Shown: positions 22,239 to 37,200, numbered from the stretch's first letter. The stretch: DNA of 64,000 nucleotides from the human T2T-CHM13v2.0 reference genome, Homo sapiens (GCF_009914755.1 NC_060946.1); one strand, 5' to 3'. The notes: generated by a model not told the origin, from the sequence alone. Numbers and translations: made by a program.

Positions 22239-25200
22239 CTAGGAGTCAACAGCAAGGATGGAAACATGAGTGCTTTTTAAAGTCCTAAAAGTTTAGAGGC
22301 CGACTGTCAATTTCTCCTGCACCCCTGGGCACACACCGGGAGAACTTTGTCTCCAGGATCAAGTAAGTGCCTGTGAGAGAGTTGTGTCCCTCAGATTCTG
22401 TTCACCACAGGTGACACTCAATGCAACCCCAAACCTCTTCTGCACAATCCCAAGGGGTGCTGACTAATCCAACCCAAAGGCTGTGATGTTTGGCAGAGGC
22501 AGAAAAGAAAAGGCCAGGTGTTCCGGGAAAGATCACCTTCAAATAACACAGCACTCTCATAGCCCAGAGAGACAGTTCTTACTATTATGCCAATAAACCT
22601 GGAAAAGACCAAATCCAATTTGACACATATTTCCTGTTTCGTTTTGATTTCATGCCCCCTCCCTCAACCTCCCAAGCAGCATGGATACCCCGAAGGCCCC
22701 TGGGAACTCTCTCCCATTGGCTCTTACGTGGAAAGTAGTTACCTACCTGCAAAATCCTCGTCATCAGACATGCTCTCCACAATCAAATCTTTAGAAACAC
22801 AAACATCAGGATAAGTCATTAGAGAGAGGCCCATCCACTCCTCCCACCCCAGCTGAAGCCCGGGTGCTTCACACAGGATCCCCTGGTGTTTCCTCTGGGC
22901 TCACAGATATCCCTACAGCCTCTCTGGACATGGTTTTATACTTGCAAAATCATTTGCTCTCACCAGACCCCAAATCCTCCTTCCCAAAAGGAGCCCAGAA
23001 TCAGGTTTCTGTACCCTAGAGGCAATGTTTTTCCCTCAGGAAATGAGTTATTTCAGGGTACGTACCATTCTCCAGTGTCAATGGCTCCTGCAATTATAGA
23101 AAAGAAAACATTAGGGGGTGAAATGTTGCCATGCACGTCACACAGATCTGATATTCTCTCAACAACTTGAGAAAATTAGAAGGGGTATAGTGATTGAGTC
23201 AGAGATCGAAGTCCCCCAAAACTAGCACGGAGGACACCTGTGGAAAAGACAACACCTTTTCCCACAGAATTTATCTTTAAAGTGTATTTAGATTGGCAGT
23301 TTCATAACTCTTAATCCACAGGGGAAAACTGCTGTGGAGGGAAACACCTCTACATTGCAGTGGATCATGGATGCTGCCATCTACCACGCCCCAGTGTGCC
23401 CGGCATGGGTTGATGAGAGGCTGCCAATCAGTAGCACCACACCAAGGGAATTGCAGATGTCATAAATAGTCCACATTGGCAGATGTTCATGTCTACATCT
23501 GATTGGAAAGAAGCCAGGAAAGCAACATTTCTGTTCAAGACAAAGGAAAGTGTCTTACCTTGGTAGCATCTTTTTTACAGAGGTATCGTACAGCATCCTC
23601 ATTAGTGATGTCGTATACAGTGTCCTCATAAGAAATGTCTTCTATAGTGTCCTCATTAGAGATGTCATGTACAGCAGCCTCATTACAGATGTCTACAGCG
23701 TCATTAGAGATGTCACGTACAGCAGCCTCATTAGAGATGTTTACGGCATCGTTAGAGATGTCACATACAGCAGCCTCATTAGAGATGTCATGTACAGAAG
23801 CCTCATTAGAGATATCTACAGTGTCCTCATCAGAGATGTCTACAGCATCCTCATTACAGATGTCATATACAGTGTCTTCTTTAGAGATGTCTTGTACAGC
23901 GTACCCACAAAGAGCTAGGAGAACACAGAGTAAAGGTCAGTGCCCTGGTGGTGAATCACCCAGGGAGCTTGCTTGGTGTGGGTGCCTGGAGGTGGCTGAT
24001 CACAGCATGGGCCCAGCTGATGCTAGGCCATCCTCCCGGGTGGACCTGCACTAGTGAAGCTAAGGGACATGACTCAGAACACTTTCTGCAGTGGGAATCA
24101 GTTTCCAGGTTCAGATATGCATTATCCAGTGAAGTGGGGAAATATAAAAAAATAGAAATTGACAAATTCATGAAAAGCCTTCCATGAGTGCAAGTGTGAT
24201 TTTTTTTGTTAACCACTTTACATTCAGTATGCATTCATACATACAAAATATTTTTGCAAGAAATCAGAAATTTTAATTTTTGTCAGTTATGTTAAATCTA
24301 ACTTAGCTGTCAACATAAAGATTCTATCTCATTTACTTTGCGGTCTCCAGAAAATCTAGCACATAGTAAGTAGACCAAAATATTTATTAAATGAAAACAC
24401 AGAGCAGGGGTGGGGGGCTGGTAGGCAGACCGAGTTGCACCTGATTACCTGGATGATAATAAACTGCACAAAACCTTGATCAGATTAATATTGAAACTGC
24501 CTTTTGCTCGGGCTCTTTTCCCTTGCAGAAGAAGGATGACCAAGAAGATGAACAGGGAAGAAATTAGAAACAGAGGCCTTTGCTTACTAGCTAAGGGTCA
24601 CCTTCTATAACATGCAATAGTCTACAAGTGGCCTTGAACTCTGCCGTGATTCAGTGAGAGTTCCCTCATGTCTTCTACCCAGGTTGAAGTCCAGCGAAAC
24701 TGTAACTGTGCTCTTTGCAACTTGCAAGACCACACTGCTTCTGCATTTGCTTGTTGTATGAGATTTACACTTGTTTTAAAGCAACATTTTGTTTCAGTTG
24801 GGCTGGTGGCCATACACTGCACTAGGCAGTCAATAGTGAGATGGCTCCTCATGGAGGAGGCTTGGCTTGAGGCTGAGGGTCTTTAACCCACATATACAAG
24901 AGAGTTGCCACTAAGGGATGGAAGCCAGGCTAATAACCAAGTGCCACACAGAGTTCCTATCTGTCCCTCCTCACCATTTTTGGCTGGCAGGATTTGAGCA
25001 TTTTAGGGCTTGGGAAGACAGTATTACTAAATCTACTAAAATACATCACCCATCCTTATAGACTTTGGCCAGTTGCTGAGCAAATTAACTTCACAACTGA
25101 AGTGGGCCACACTGGCCTTTGTGGTCCCCCACTCCTCTTAGAATTTGTGAGCGTGGGGCCTACTGGAGGGTGGAAGTTTGGAGGAGGGGGAGGATTGGGG

Positions 25201-34200: not shown

Positions 34201-37200
34201 GAGCGTGCTGACCCCCATGCTTACACCCACCTGCTAACACAGGGAGGATCCATTCAGAAGGGAGGCACAGCTCCAGCACTGACGCTCTCCATGCCAGCTT
34301 CACAAGAGAGTTGCCATGAACAGACACCCAGATAACCACCAAGTGGTAATTTGAGTACTCAATGATCATGATCCCTAAAGTACGTAGCTCAGAGGGCTTG
34401 TGGTGAACTGTGGCCAAGACTCTAAAGCATCTCCCCAATTCTTACTGGACTTAAGCCATGTCTTGAGGAGACCCAGCTATGACACGCAGGCACCACATTG
34501 TCCTACTTAGTGCCTCCCTTAGTGTTTCAGAACCTGTGATTTGATCAGAAACATGGGCTTTCTATGTTGGTTTCACACTAAGGACTATGTGACACCTGCA
34601 GGAAGATGCCTACATAGCTACATTATAAGATCACTGAGCCTCTCTTATGTGAGGGATGGCGTTTGGGATCGCTGCAGGCGTGGGTAATTCCAGGCATAGA
34701 GGGTGCTGGAACTCCCTTGCATGGTGAATAGTGATCCCTTCACTGGCTGATAAATAGAAGTTGTAGTTCAGGCCTTCAACAATGGGACCGTATGAGTAAA
34801 CATCTTGGCTCCTCACTTCATAGCAAGTGAGCTGGGGCACATTTATTTCTGTGGCTTAGTTTCTCCATCTGGTGTGGGGGTTCAATAAACAAGCTCACAA
34901 CATATGGCCATGATGAGGTTTGAACTAATGTAAGTAAAGTATGTGGTCTGATTTGTTAAATTAAGAAAAATGGCCCTGAGAGTTGTGCTGGGTAAACACA
35001 CTTTTTTCCTAGGGGCAACACACATAGACACACATTCACAAGCAAATCAAGCAGACTTGCATATAGACCACCCCACCCCACCCCTGCCTTAATACACACC
35101 CCCCACACATGACCTAATGTGAACACCACCTAATGTGAACACGTTTCCAGGAACTATACATAGGTAAAAAGAGTTTGTCACCTGGAAAACCAGTTTCTTT
35201 TACTATACCCCACATCCTCATTCCCACCAGGTGTCTTGGATCATGGAAGCTCTCCAGACCAAAGCCAGCAGTTAGGCTCCAGATTTCCTACAGAATCTTT
35301 TTCTAACAGCCAGTGAGTGATTCCAGAATACGTACCATTGATTGGGCTCAATGAAGTCACCTGTAACTAGAGAAGGAAAACACTCTGAGAATCAGGCTAT
35401 GCTATGGATGGTTCGCACAGGTCTTTTGTTCACTTGGAAACTCTGGGCAACCAAGATGGGAAAGAATGTTCAAGTCAAAAGCCCCAACTCTAGAGTAGAG
35501 TTTCCTTAGGAAAGCACTGGAGCTTTTCTGGAAGGATGTTTCTATCTAGACAATTTTTGGGTAGCAATTACAGAATTCTTATCTAAAGTGGAAAACTTGT
35601 TCCTGAAGAAAATATCCCTTAACATGCAGTGTACTATCTGACACTGCCAATTGTGTATGTCCTCTGGAATCAGGTGTCAGTTGGTAAGATACACCTCCTC
35701 CATTGCCAAGGAAACATTATCTAACATCTATAGTGTAGTGGATAATTTTCCCATAGTTGATATCAACTGAAAAATAAAGGAACCAAGAAAACAACATTTA
35801 CATCTTAGGCAAAGACAGGCTACTTTACCATGGTAGTAGAGTAGGGCTCCCTTTTCACACGCTTTTTGGAAGGCTTCTTCAAGTCACCTAGGGGATGTGG
35901 AAGGACACAGCATGGCTGTCAGTTCATTGGTGGTGCTACTCATGAATGACTCAGGGACTAGAACTTAGGGGTGTGCCTGGTTAACAAGCATGGATTGAGC
36001 TTCTTCTGGACCATTCTCTTCATGGACCAAGGAAGGCAAAGAAAGAGCAGGAAGGAAATGAGTAGAGCCCTTGGCTTTCCAGGCAATGGCAAATGAAAGC
36101 AACATGAAATAAACAAACTCCAAATGAACAAATACTAAAATACATGCTAGGATTCAACCACAGCGTCCTGTCACTTCTTCAGATGCTTTAAAAGCCCACA
36201 GGACTATCACTTCTTCTTGACATCTACCAAGTCCCTTTCAACCTCCACAGACCCACATACAGTGCTACTGCATTTATCATCGAGGGTCTGGGGTTCTGCT
36301 CTTTTTTATGTGTGAATTTTTTAAAAACTAGATTTAATTCCATGCACCAGCATTAATTATATTTATTTATTTTCTTTGTTATAAAAATAATCAGCCAGGT
36401 GTGGTGGCTCACACCTGTAATCCCAGCACTTTGGGAGGTTGAGGTAGGTGGATAATTTGAAGTCAAGAGTTTGAGACCAGCCTGACCAACATAATGAACC
36501 CTGTCTCTAGTTAAAAAAAAAAAAAAAAATAGCCAGGCATGGTGGCATGTGCCTGTAATCCCAGCTACTCAGGAGGCTGAAGCAGGAGAATCCCTCGAAC
36601 CTGGAGGCGGAGGCTATAGTGAGCTGAGATCGTGCCACTGCACTCCAGCCAGGGCAACAGAGTGAGACTCCATATCAGAAAAACAAAACAAAACAAAAAA
36701 ACCGGCAGGGTGCAGTGGCTCACGCCTGTAATCCCAGCACTTTGGGAAGCCAACGTGGGCGGATCATGAGGTCAGAAGATCAAGACTATCCTGGCTAACA
36801 CAGTGAAATCCCGTCTCTACTAAAAACACAAAAAATTAGCCAGGCGTGGTGGCATGCGCCTGTTGTCCCAGCTACTTGGGAGGCTGAGGGAGGAGAATTG
36901 CTTGAGTCCAGGAAGCAGAGGTTGCAGTGAGCCGAGATTGTGCCAGTGCACTCCAGCCTGGGCAACAGAGCAAGACTCTGCCAAAAAAAAAGCCCCCCCC
37001 CAAAAAAATCAATTATTAAAGATTAGAAAATACTGAAATGCTTATATTTTAAAATAACCACTATAACCGTACATTTTCCGTTCAGTCTTCCTTTGCCCTG
37101 TGTTTGCAGTCATCATGTGAGGAGCTACCTATGTTCAGCCCAGGCAACCCACAGGGAGAGAGGGCAGAGCGGGGAGATGGCCCCTGGTGAGCACTGAGGC

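What the first reader, a model, noticed from the sequence alone, without database searches (positions are those of the whole stretch)
23066..35887. Gene built from a triplicated two-exon cassette with conserved intron length
Seen: three pairs of a phase 1>0 exon and a phase 0>1 micro-exon: 35829-35887/35336-35360, 26627-26688/26128-26161 and 23559-23914/23066-23087. The intervening introns are 468, 465 and 471 bp. Flanks are similar: plus-strand aacattt...ttacc before each larger exon, ctaggagaacacagagtaa vs ctaggaggacacagagtaa, and ttccagaatacgtacc vs ttccagaatacttacc. The motif caagagagttgcca occurs at ~24897 and ~34303. Inference: an ancient phase-1-symmetric module was tandemly duplicated. 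Its exons then diverged faster than its introns into basic, neutral and acidic versions, and each cassette can be skipped without a frameshift.
Basis: seen in the sequence. Interest (0 to 1): 0.7.

Follow-up and report, generated by a model that had tools for sequence, protein, structure and literature searches.

The report
Ancient two-exon cassette repeated in FAM230I
Three exon pairs of the human FAM230I gene are very old copies of one two-exon building block that also builds related genes elsewhere, and the coding parts have changed about twice as fast as the DNA around them.

Summary

The three introns are homologous. Global identity is 61-67%, z = 11-16 against 200 shuffles (z 13-17 against a second set of 300). 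None of 300 genomic control windows came near the observed scores.

The repeat is larger than the cassette. It is a 2.4-2.7 kb head-to-tail unit: C1 36384-34530 matches C2 27220-25343 at E 1e-84. C2 and C3 abut, and two exon-less partial units flank C1.

It is not private to this gene. The same cassette was found as 20 complete copies at 10 loci on chr22, chr18, chr12 and chr5, the last matching Pfam FAM153. Several of these loci have tandem arrays of their own.

- Frame: all 20 large exons are 2 mod 3 in length, and all 17 micro-exons are 1 mod 3.
- Rate: exon bodies differ about twice as much as flanking DNA, 65/208 against 696/3957, p 3e-6.
- Third exon: the 356-nt exon is a later 27-nt repeat expansion of a ~53-nt exon.
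- Descent: C3 is closer to cassettes of another chr22 gene than to C1 or C2 (AU p 1e-5).

This is a real, old tandem module duplication. It is a known kind of event in a family where I found no description of it.

The parts
39640..39741 (-). Exon 1 of NR_110539.2. It holds the first ATG of the transcript (39667-39665), which opens a 240-codon frame beginning MGIHFSC.
   Evidence: The MG start is conserved in the chr22:32.83 Mb paralogue (MGNLSSC) and in the chr13 copy.
37366..37909 (-). Partial unit C0: only the tail of a repeat unit, with no exons.
   Evidence: nhmmer: 34958-34458 matches 37909-37401 at E 6e-26. The profile matches hmm 1823-2297 at E 5e-31.
34254..37345 (-). Repeat unit C1, the basic cassette. 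It is interrupted by two Alu copies at 36384-36995.
   Evidence: 36384-34530 matches 27220-25343 at E 1e-84, and 37340-37019 matches 27565-27231.
35829..35887 (-). C1 large exon, 59 nt, phase 1>0.
   Evidence: The homologous position in the family alignment is shown.
35361..35828 (-). C1 intron: 468 nt with the family-wide acceptor, 462 nt with the RefSeq acceptor at 35366.
35336..35366 (-). C1 micro-exon: 31 nt in RefSeq, 25 nt with the ancestral acceptor at 35360. Phase 0>1.
33994..34264 (-). Partial unit C1b: only the head of a unit, directly after C1.
   Evidence: 27410-27091 matches 34264-33994 at E 4.7e-5. The profile gives E 0.004. This is the weakest part.
33178..33261 (-). Exon 4, 84 nt, phase 1>1. 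It lies in DNA unrelated to the repeat unit, between C1b and C2.
   Evidence: There is no unit homology here. Homologues lie at chr22:32.83 Mb and, weakly, at chr12.
24849..27623 (-). Repeat unit C2, with a ~190-nt dispersed-repeat insert at 25152-25343.
26627..26688 (-). C2 large exon, 62 nt, phase 1>0.
26162..26626 (-). C2 intron, 465 nt.
26128..26161 (-). C2 micro-exon, 34 nt, made of 25 nt plus a 9-nt duplication at the acceptor. Phase 0>1.
22792..25150 (-). Repeat unit C3. It starts where C2 ends, and its tail is cut off at about 22792.
   Evidence: 35879-35070 matches 23599-22837 at E 2e-31, and 26628-25844 matches 23560-22792 at E 1e-18.
23559..23914 (-). C3 large exon, 356 nt, phase 1>0. 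The ancestral ~53-60 nt exon has been enlarged by about 11 copies of a 27-nt (9-residue, D/E-rich) repeat.
   Evidence: 27-nt periodicity is shown. The chr18 homologue is 53 nt with a single repeat unit.
23088..23558 (-). C3 intron, 471 nt.
23066..23087 (-). C3 micro-exon, 22 nt, phase 0>1. It shares a 3-nt deletion with the chr22:24.06 Mb cassettes.
22747..22788 (-). Exon 9, 42 nt, phase 1>1. It follows the array here. In the chr22:24.06 Mb locus its homologue is part of the repeated unit.
22234..22236 (-). TAA stop of the 240-codon frame. It lies in exon 10 of 12, so two exon junctions follow it.
   Evidence: Derived from the exon sequences and translation.

Best explanation
FAM230I carries three anciently diverged copies of one genomic module. 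The module is a ~60-nt exon starting in phase 1, an intron of about 467 nt, and a ~25-nt micro-exon ending in phase 1. It sits inside a 2.4-2.7 kb repeat unit.

The copies arose by head-to-tail tandem duplication in a protein-coding ancestor. That ancestor also gave rise to FAM153 on chr5 and to several other loci on chr22, chr12 and chr18. Because the module is phase-symmetric, any number of copies can be added, lost or skipped without breaking the reading frame. This explains why different family members carry 1 to 4 copies.

Splice sites, exon length modulo 3 and the open frame have been kept. The exon bodies encode short, charged, low-complexity peptide stretches and turn over fast by substitution, in-frame indels and slippage. 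The extreme case is the 27-nt repeat that inflated the third large exon.

Shown: homology, tandem order, frame conservation and the faster change of exon bodies. Inferred: the order of events, the age (on the order of 10^8 years), and that frame conservation reflects translation.
For: Homology of introns and units.
- Introns are 61-67% identical, z 11-16 against 200 shuffles and z 13-17 against 300.
- The maximum of 300 genomic control windows is -55, against observed scores of +27 to +72.
- Unit-level nhmmer E-values are 1e-84, 2e-31 and 1e-18.

Tandem order.
- Unit tails match unit heads: 25157-24849, 34538-34254, 37352-37136 and 27626-27399 are all homologous.
- C3 begins where C2 ends, and partial units flank C1.

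Not an interspersed repeat.
- Whole-genome searches with C1 and C2 found only the FAM230 paralogues plus a few single loci.

Family-wide cassette.
- 20 complete cassettes lie at 10 loci, with nhmmer E-values down to 1e-147.
- The acceptor and donor flanks are conserved while the exon bodies are variable.
- Independent tandem arrays exist with periods of ~1.1 kb (chr22:32.61 and 29.87 Mb) and 3.2-4.2 kb (chr22:24.06 Mb).

Frame constraint.
- 20 of 20 large exons are 2 mod 3, in nine length classes from 53 to 83 nt. The phase-1 frame is open in 19 of 20.
- 17 of 17 micro-exons are 1 mod 3, and frame 0 is open in all 17.
- The first ATG of the RefSeq RNA opens a 240-codon frame through all three cassettes.

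Exon bodies faster than flanks.
- C2 vs chr18: 22/96 against 320/2076.
- C3 micro-exon vs chr18: 12/22 against 123/705.
- C1 vs chr22:32.83: 31/90 against 253/1176.
- Pooled OR is 2.13, p 3e-6. Without CpG sites it is 58/192 against 628/3836, p 4e-6.

Other support.
- A chr5 cassette exon matches Pfam PF15722 (FAM153) at E 8.5e-13.
- Peptides assigned to FAM230A (6) and FAM230C (19) are reported in PeptideAtlas. Almost all of the FAM230A peptides come from testis or sperm (PMC11601488, passages read).
Against: - C1 is not adjacent to C2. They are separated by 6.4 kb (33994-27625) with no unit homology.
- Older paralogous segments cover either window 22217-31258 (chr18, C2+C3) or about 31674-40000 (chr22:32.83 Mb, C1). 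The present three-cassette order could therefore be a later mosaic.
- The three cassettes are not each other's closest relatives. C3 groups with four cassettes of another locus, and monophyly of the three lineages is rejected at p-AU 1.2e-5. That group was named after the tree had been seen.
- Among the recent FAM230 paralogues, exons are not significantly more variable: 11/96 against 399/4708, p 0.27.
- dN/dS on 46 gap-free codons is 0.74, and dS (0.46) also exceeds the non-coding divergence. Positive selection on the protein is therefore not shown, and local hypermutability or indel turnover may explain the excess.
- FAM230I exons match no Pfam family.
- The stop codon lies in exon 10 of 12, which fits the non-coding or NMD annotation.
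- No RNA data, cross-species data or repeat-library data could be consulted.
Confidence: 0.8

Rival explanations
1. Mosaic origin. The cassettes are homologous, but FAM230I's three-cassette order was assembled by segmental duplication. A 5' fragment of one family member (C1 type, as at chr22:32.83 Mb) was joined to a 3' fragment of another (C2+C3 type, as on chr18). It was not a local triplication in this gene.
For: - The chr18 copies are colinear with window 22217-31258 only.
- The chr22:32.83 Mb copy is colinear with about 31674-40000 only.
- The two limits lie within about 400 nt of each other.
- In the tree C1 pairs with chr22:32.83 and C2 and C3 pair with chr18, each at 100/100.
- C3 is nearer to the chr22:24.06 cassettes than to C1 or C2.
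Against: - C1 itself sits inside a tandem context, with the tail of a unit before it and the head of a unit after it.
- C2 and C3 are tandem neighbours in both chr22 and chr18.
- The same pattern would arise if chr18 and chr22:32.83 were partial copies of a FAM230-like ancestor broken at one fragile site.
- No outgroup was available to give direction.
Confidence: 0.3
2. The units are copies of an old transposable element that happened to be exonised three times.
For: - The units are dispersed on four chromosomes.
- Pieces of about 110-170 nt recur at several chr22 sites.
- No repeat library could be consulted.
Against: - Genome-wide searches gave only a handful of loci, not hundreds.
- Within each locus examined, the complete cassettes lie in one orientation.
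- Every complete copy keeps both splice-site pairs, the same phases and an open frame.
- No terminal repeats or TE-like frames were seen.
- True dispersed repeats inside the loci behave differently, with dozens of ~69% hits on many chromosomes (query positions 400-1001).
Confidence: 0.04
3. The resemblance is chance plus splice-site consensus, and the equal intron lengths are a coincidence.
For: - Ungapped repeat finding missed the cassettes.
- blastn gave only short hits near the splice sites.
Against: - Intron z-scores are 11-17, and 0 of 300 shuffles or genomic controls reached the observed scores.
- Colinear homology runs over 1.9 kb at E 1e-84.
Confidence: 0.01

Closest known systems
Intragenic tandem duplication and shuffling of phase 1-1 symmetric exon modules (general principle, recalled from the exon-shuffling literature; no paper read here)
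   Same: The module starts and ends in phase 1. Copies lie head to tail. Copy number differs between family members without frameshift.
   Different: The module is two exons with a fixed ~467-nt intron, not a single domain exon. It encodes short low-complexity peptide rather than a folded domain. The host gene is annotated as non-coding.
FAM153 family (Pfam PF15722)
   Same: The chr5 loci carry the same cassette at the DNA level: nhmmer E 1e-66 to 1e-118 against the cassette profile. One of their large exons matches PF15722 at E 8.5e-13. Phases and intron length (452-469 nt in 3 of 4 copies) agree.
   Different: The FAM230I exon translations do not match PF15722 or any other Pfam family. The relationship is visible in introns and splice flanks, not in the protein.
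Core-duplicon gene families whose exons evolve faster than their introns, such as NPIP/morpheus on chr16 (recalled, not read here)
   Same: The gene is carried by segmental duplications. FAM230 is called a very recurrent LCR22 module in PMC12047281 (passages read). Exon bodies differ about twice as much as surrounding non-coding DNA.
   Different: Here dN/dS is about 0.74 and synonymous sites are also fast, so positive selection is not shown. The excess is not significant among the recent FAM230 copies.
Asp-rich tandem-cassette locus at chr22:24.056-24.086 Mb (T2T), about 190 kb from the window. From position and composition I believe it is DRICH1, but that name is from memory and no tool confirmed it.
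   Same: It has four tandem cassettes of the C3 type, with 22-nt micro-exons, the same donor flank and D/E-rich large exons. They group with C3 at 100/100. The locus is colinear with window ~22190-24390, including exon 9.
   Different: Its repeat unit has three exons (it includes the 42-nt exon) with a period of 3.2-4.2 kb. C1- and C2-type cassettes were not found in the 30 kb examined.
FAM230 lincRNA family as described by Delihas (PMC5906017, PMC7098633, PMC6162681)
   Same: It is the same gene family. Nine or ten paralogues at 91-95% identity lie on chr22 and chr13. Large open frames in FAM230 were noted there (PMC7098633, passage read).
   Different: Those papers describe copying by LCR22 duplication and the translocation-breakpoint motif. 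In the passages I searched, 'tandem' occurs 0 times in PMC7098633 and only for satellite DNA in PMC5906017. Neither mentions chr18 or an internal exon cassette. PMC6162681 was seen in the search listing only.

Membership tests
Intragenic tandem duplication of an exon module | The copies are homologous beyond the splice consensus. | tested here: met
   Introns give z 11-17 against shuffles and genomic controls. Units give E 1e-18 to 1e-84.
Intragenic tandem duplication of an exon module | The copies lie head to tail, in the same orientation, and adjacent. | tested here: inconclusive
   All copies are on the minus strand. C2 and C3 abut, and partial units flank C1. C1 and C2 are 6.4 kb apart.
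Intragenic tandem duplication of an exon module | The outer phases are symmetric, so copy number can change in frame. | tested here: met
   Each cassette is phase 1>0 then 0>1. Cassette lengths are 90, 96 and 378 nt. The same holds in 20/20 large exons and 17/17 micro-exons across the family.
Intragenic tandem duplication of an exon module | The copies in one gene are each other's closest relatives (a private duplication). | tested here: not met
   C3 groups with the chr22:24.06 cassettes at 100/100. The AU test rejects one clade at p 1.2e-5. The duplication predates the split of the family's genes, or the array is a mosaic.
FAM230 gene family | High-identity paralogy with the other FAM230 loci in LCR22 and on chr13. 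| tested here: met
   C2 unit: 9 copies at 94-95%. C1 unit: 9 copies at 91%. The gene name comes from the hub's annotation table.
FAM153 (Pfam PF15722) | The protein matches the PF15722 profile above its cut-off. | tested here: not met
   Three FAM230I exon translations gave no hit. They are short (20-118 aa), and spliced proteins were not submitted. A chr5 cassette exon does match at 49 bits against a cut-off of 27.
Interspersed repeat (transposable element) | Many dispersed copies in both orientations, matching a repeat library. | tested here: not met
   Copy number is low in whole-genome searches. A library match could not be tested because Dfam and RepeatMasker were not available.
Alternatively spliced tandem exons (mutually exclusive or skipped cassettes) | Transcripts differ in which cassette they include. 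| not testable with these tools
   No RNA data were available. The hub's table lists alternative exons only at 22129-22238 and 22537-22598, not at the cassettes.
N-myristoylated proteins (MGxxxS/T/C start) | Gly at position 2 with a small or hydroxyl residue at position 6, and demonstrated myristoylation. | tested here: inconclusive
   The frame starts MGIHFSC. Paralogues start MGNLSSC and MGNLCYC. The motif rule is recalled. Modification is shown only for C22orf42 and DRICH1 (PMC4550359), and their identity with the loci studied here is not confirmed.

The most novel reading that the evidence does not exclude
The FAM230 'lncRNA' genes of the 22q11.2 low-copy repeats may be members of an old, fast-evolving, probably testis-expressed protein family with an MG start. 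The family would include FAM153 and several chr22, chr12 and chr18 loci. Its proteins would be assembled from a variable number of one two-exon, phase-1-symmetric cassette. Selection would preserve splice flanks, the ~467-nt intron and the reading frame while leaving, or driving, the peptide sequence to change about twice as fast as neutral DNA. Family membership would then be recognisable from introns but not from protein sequence.
Probability: 0.3. Interest if true: 0.65.

Novelty: new member of a known kind. Interest (0 to 1): 0.5.

Why it matters
FAM230 copies are among the most recurrent modules of the LCR22 repeats that mediate the 22q11.2 deletion. They are treated in print as recently formed non-coding genes.

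The cassette anatomy points instead to a much older coding architecture:
- the first ATG opens a 240-codon frame in FAM230I;
- frame and phase are kept in 20 of 20 large-exon and 17 of 17 micro-exon copies examined at 10 loci;
- this architecture is shared with FAM153 and other loci.

Three consequences follow.
- It gives a concrete reason to test translation of these genes. Peptides for FAM230A and FAM230C are already reported, those for FAM230A almost all from testis or sperm.
- It shows how the family changes its protein length in frame, by adding whole cassettes and by expanding a 27-nt repeat.
- It is a clear case where homology survives in introns and splice flanks but not in exon bodies. 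Protein-based searches will miss such families.

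Tried and rejected
- Ungapped repeat finding saw only Alus and the 27-nt repeat, not the cassettes. blastn with word 7 gave only short colinear hits. Both are too insensitive at about 60-65% identity, so nhmmer and global alignment were used instead.
- A five-sequence MAFFT alignment of whole units gave 47-56% identity and looked poorly aligned in places. I did not use it for dating.
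- Constraint on intron length. Indel events in the intron were fewer than expected only for C1-C2 (5 against 11.2 expected, P 0.03). They were not fewer for C1-C3 (9 against 9.1) or C2-C3 (11 against 9.3). Intron identity equals that of the rest of the unit. I therefore do not claim selection on intron length. Across the family, 11 of 20 introns are 452-474 nt, 9 are longer through insertions, and none is shorter.
- Positive selection. NG86 dN/dS is 0.74 on 46 codons, so this is not supported.
- Exon acceleration among the recent FAM230 copies is not significant.
- Pfam on FAM230I exons gave nothing meaningful; the best was an E 0.15 chance hit. Pfam on four other cassette exons also gave nothing.
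I used single-sequence searches instead.
- Literature. Searches for FAM230, for FAM230 with DRICH1, C22orf42, C22orf43, FAM153 or RFPL3S, and for FAM153A, FAM153B or DRICH1 with 'paralog' or 'testis' found no paper describing the cassette or linking these families. Supplements were not opened.
- The names DRICH1, C22orf42 and RFPL3S for the chr22 loci could not be verified with any tool and are offered only as recollection.

Full report
**1. What is at the coordinates**

The window is human chr22 (T2T) and the gene is FAM230I, on the minus strand. All twelve RefSeq exons have AG and GT borders.

One frame of the spliced RNA is open from exon 1 to exon 10.
- 35887-35829 with 35366/35360-35336;
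- 26688-26627 with 26161-26128;
- 23914-23559 with 23087-23066.

The cassettes are 90 (or 84), 96 and 378 nt, so removing any one keeps the frame. RefSeq uses an acceptor 6 nt further upstream for the first micro-exon.

**2. Are the three introns homologous?**

Yes.
- Global alignments give 282/459, 277/454 and 295/441 identical positions, that is 61-67%.
- Scores are +72, +27 and +35. Dinucleotide shuffles give about -78 +/- 9, so z is 11-16, and none of 3 x 200 shuffles exceeds -44.
- 300 random 468-nt windows from the same 64 kb reach at most -55.
- A second run with 300 mononucleotide shuffles gave z 13-17 for the introns and z 4-10 for 270-300 nt flanks.

**3. The repeat is a 2.4-2.7 kb unit in a head-to-tail array**

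Unit-level matches by nhmmer:

| Pair | Coordinates | E-value |
|---|---|---|
| C1 / C2 | 36384-34530 / 27220-25343 | 1e-84 |
| C1 / C2, beyond an Alu pair in C1 | 37340-37019 / 27565-27231 | 1.8e-7 |
| C1 / C3 | 35879-35070 / 23599-22837 | 2e-31 |
| C2 / C3 | 26628-25844 / 23560-22792 | 1e-18 |

Unit tails match unit heads: 25157-24849, 34538-34254, 37352-37136 and 27626-27399 are all homologous. This is the signature of a tandem array.

A profile of the units finds no further copy in the window apart from two exon-less remnants:
- a unit tail at 37909-37366 (E 5e-31);
- a weak unit head at 34133-33996 (E 0.004; pairwise E 4.7e-5).

The order along the gene is therefore C0 (tail), C1, C1b (head), 6.4 kb of unrelated DNA holding exon 4, then C2 and C3. 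C2 and C3 abut. C3 is cut off at about 22792, just before exon 9.

**4. The 356-nt exon is secondary**

The exon has 27-nt periodicity. Two chr18 paralogues carry C2 and C3 and are about 80-86% identical to the window. In them the homologous C3 exon is 53 nt and holds a single 27-nt unit between the same acceptor and donor flanks.

In other FAM230 copies the same repeat is far larger. Open frames reach 2211, 1440 and 1417 codons at chr22:20.757-20.767 Mb and up to 1805 on chr13.

**5. The cassette is the building block of a dispersed family**

Whole-genome searches with the units found:
- the FAM230 paralogues at 91-95% identity;
- two chr18 copies at 82%;
- a chr22:32.83 Mb copy at 76-77%;
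- a chr12:107.77 Mb copy at 68-72%.

A search with the chr12 copy found further relatives at chr22:24.08, 25.79, 29.87 and 32.61 Mb, and at chr5:176.6-176.7, 178.3 and 181.2 Mb.

A cassette profile (alignment A1) finds 20 complete cassettes at 10 loci:

| Locus | Complete cassettes | Arrangement |
|---|---|---|
| chr22:24.06 Mb | 4 | tandem, period 3.2-4.2 kb |
| chr22:32.61 Mb | 3 | tandem, period about 1.1-1.2 kb |
| chr22:29.87 Mb | 2 | tandem |
| each chr5 locus examined | 2 | two or three large-exon hits each |

One chr5 large exon matches Pfam PF15722 (FAM153) at E 8.5e-13. FAM230I exons match nothing in Pfam.

In the alignments the polypyrimidine/AG and GT flanks are nearly invariant, while the exon bodies are unalignable in places.

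**6. Evidence for a long-kept reading frame**

- Large exons measure 53, 56, 59, 62, 65, 68, 71, 80 and 83 nt. All 20 are 2 mod 3.
- The phase-1 frame is free of stops in 19 of 20. The exception has a stop as its last codon. The other two frames mostly carry stops.
- Micro-exons are 22, 25, 28 or 34 nt. All 17 are 1 mod 3, with frame 0 open in all 17.
- Several copies are recent duplicates, so these counts are not independent. Nine length classes in one residue class is the fairer measure.
- Many large exons start with a weak x-x-E-D motif.
- In FAM230I the first ATG of the RefSeq RNA (39667-39665) opens a 240-codon frame, MGIHFSC..., through all three cassettes.
- The MG start is conserved at chr22:32.83 Mb (MGNLSSC) and in the chr13 copy.
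- The stop is in exon 10 of 12, which fits a non-coding or NMD-type annotation.

From the literature:
- PMC7098633 notes large FAM230 open frames, including an NMD transcript of FAM230A (passage).
- PMC11601488 reports 6 peptides for FAM230A, almost all from testis or sperm, and 19 for FAM230C, which it classes as aberrant translation (passages).

**7. Exons against introns**

Among the three cassettes themselves, exon identity is 50-63% (z 1.2-2.9) and is not above intron identity of 61-67%. The exons are too short for a firm test at that depth.

Comparisons with older paralogues have more power:

| Comparison | Exon differences | Non-coding differences |
|---|---|---|
| C2 vs chr18 | 22/96 | 320/2076 |
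| C3 micro-exon vs chr18 | 12/22 | 123/705 |
| C1 vs chr22:32.83 Mb | 31/90 | 253/1176 |
| Pooled | 65/208 (31%) | 696/3957 (18%) |

The pooled odds ratio is 2.13, p 3e-6. Dropping CpG sites changes nothing: 58/192 against 628/3836, p 4e-6. The 20 nt before and 6 nt after each exon were excluded from the non-coding class.

Results against a simple selection story:
- Among eight recent FAM230 copies the excess is not significant: 11/96 against 399/4708 variable sites, p 0.27.
- dN/dS is 0.74 on 46 gap-free codons, with dS 0.46 also above the non-coding level.

The excess is therefore real, but I cannot assign it to positive selection. Slippage and in-frame indel turnover of low-complexity coding sequence is at least as likely.

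Charges:

| Cassette | K+R | D+E | pI |
|---|---|---|---|
| C1 | 7 | 2 | 10.3 |
| C2 | 6 | 4 | 10.6 |
| C3 | 6 | 34 | 4.05 |

The pattern is basic, basic, acidic, not basic, neutral, acidic.

**8. Intron length**

Across the 20 cassettes, 11 introns are 452-474 nt. The other 9 are 538-1476 nt, with Alu insertions shown for the chr12 and chr22:32.83 copies. None is shorter than 452 nt. The ~467-nt length is therefore ancestral.

The intron is no better conserved in sequence than the rest of the unit. It has fewer indel events in only one of three pairs. I treat the equal lengths as inheritance, with constraint unproven.

**9. History**

A tree of 20 cassettes on 641 columns gives:
- C1 + chr22:32.83, support 100/100;
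- C2 + chr18 C2, 100/100;
- C3 + chr18 C3 + the four chr22:24.06 cassettes, 100/100;
- C1 + C2 only 82/83.

Forcing the three FAM230I lineages into one clade costs 59 log-likelihood units (p-AU 1.2e-5). The group was named after seeing the tree. The chr22:24.06 locus is also colinear with the window from about 22190 to 24390, including exon 9.

So the split of C1, C2 and C3 is older than the split between FAM230-type genes and that neighbouring locus. Path lengths between cassette types are 0.8-1.0 substitutions per site by ML. From raw identities they are 0.44-0.55 (my Jukes-Cantor arithmetic). The window-to-chr18 distance is about 0.18-0.22. By inference from general mammalian neutral rates, which I recall rather than computed, the duplication is on the order of 10^8 years old.

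Older paralogues cover either 22217-31258 (chr18) or about 31674-40000 (chr22:32.83). The present C1 ... C2-C3 arrangement may therefore be an ancestral array later copied in parts, or a mosaic of two family members. I cannot decide this without outgroup genomes.

**10. Known or new?**

Tandem duplication of phase-symmetric exon modules is a textbook process. FAM230 as an LCR22-borne family is described (PMC5906017, PMC7098633: passages read; PMC6162681: search listing only).

I found no description of the internal cassette, of its presence in FAM153 and the other loci, or of the exon/intron rate contrast (searches; term look-ups). Supplements were not opened, and gene-tree databases could not be consulted.

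The names DRICH1 (chr22:24.06 Mb) and C22orf42 or RFPL3S (chr22:32.6-32.8 Mb) are my recollection from position and composition only. PMC4550359 shows that C22orf42 and DRICH1 proteins are N-myristoylated (passages). That would fit the MG start if the names are right.

**Verdict**

This is a real, old, in-frame module duplication belonging to a wider family that I did not find described. It is a new member of a known kind, of moderate interest.

Noticed in passing
window 23572-23927; G000 C22:20757829-20766970; C13:13673469-13677988: The 27-nt (9-residue, DISNE-like) coding repeat of the C3 exon has about 11 copies here. In other FAM230 paralogues it forms stop-free frames of 1417-2211 codons. 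It behaves as a coding minisatellite that differs hugely between paralogues.
   Followed up: partly
window 14837-15429 (last exon): There are internal tandem repeats with offsets of about 100 nt (E 1e-11 to 1e-18). They translate to reiterated G-rich motifs in all frames. They lie downstream of the 240-codon frame's stop.
   Followed up: no
window 37203-37391 vs 38137-38321: A well-preserved inverted repeat of about 185 nt (E 1e-42 to 1e-44) lies just upstream of the C0 remnant. Its origin is unknown.
   Followed up: no
window 38357-38538 vs 39736-39919: A direct repeat of about 180 nt at 90% identity. One copy lies immediately upstream of exon 1 in the promoter region and overlaps its first bases.
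   Followed up: no
G000 C18:10786001-10826000 and C18:12328001-12368000: These are two inverted chr18 segments, 96-98% identical to each other over about 29 kb and 1.5 Mb apart. Each carries the C2+C3 part of the array at about 80-86% identity to the window.
   Followed up: partly
window 31258-31674: The chr18-type homology ends at 31258 and the chr22:32.83-type homology begins near 31674. This is a possible old duplication junction. The gap overlaps a dispersed repeat (31200-31599 matches window 9009-9302, minus strand).
   Followed up: partly
window 35979-36092: A piece of about 110 nt upstream of the C1 large exon matches nine other sites, all on chr22 (24.06, 25.79, 29.87 and 32.61 Mb). 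These turned out to be the equivalent position in other cassettes of the family.
   Followed up: yes
G000 C7:112731403-112732005 vs C12:107773000-107773601 (approx.): A 602-nt stretch inside the chr12 locus is 100% identical to a chr7 site. The same stretch matches many chromosomes at about 69%, so it is a dispersed repeat. The perfect chr7 copy is unexplained.
   Followed up: no
window 26128-26137: The last 10 nt of the C2 micro-exon differ at 5 positions between FAM230I and all seven other FAM230 paralogues compared. This is a cluster of lineage-specific changes in a 34-nt exon.
   Followed up: no
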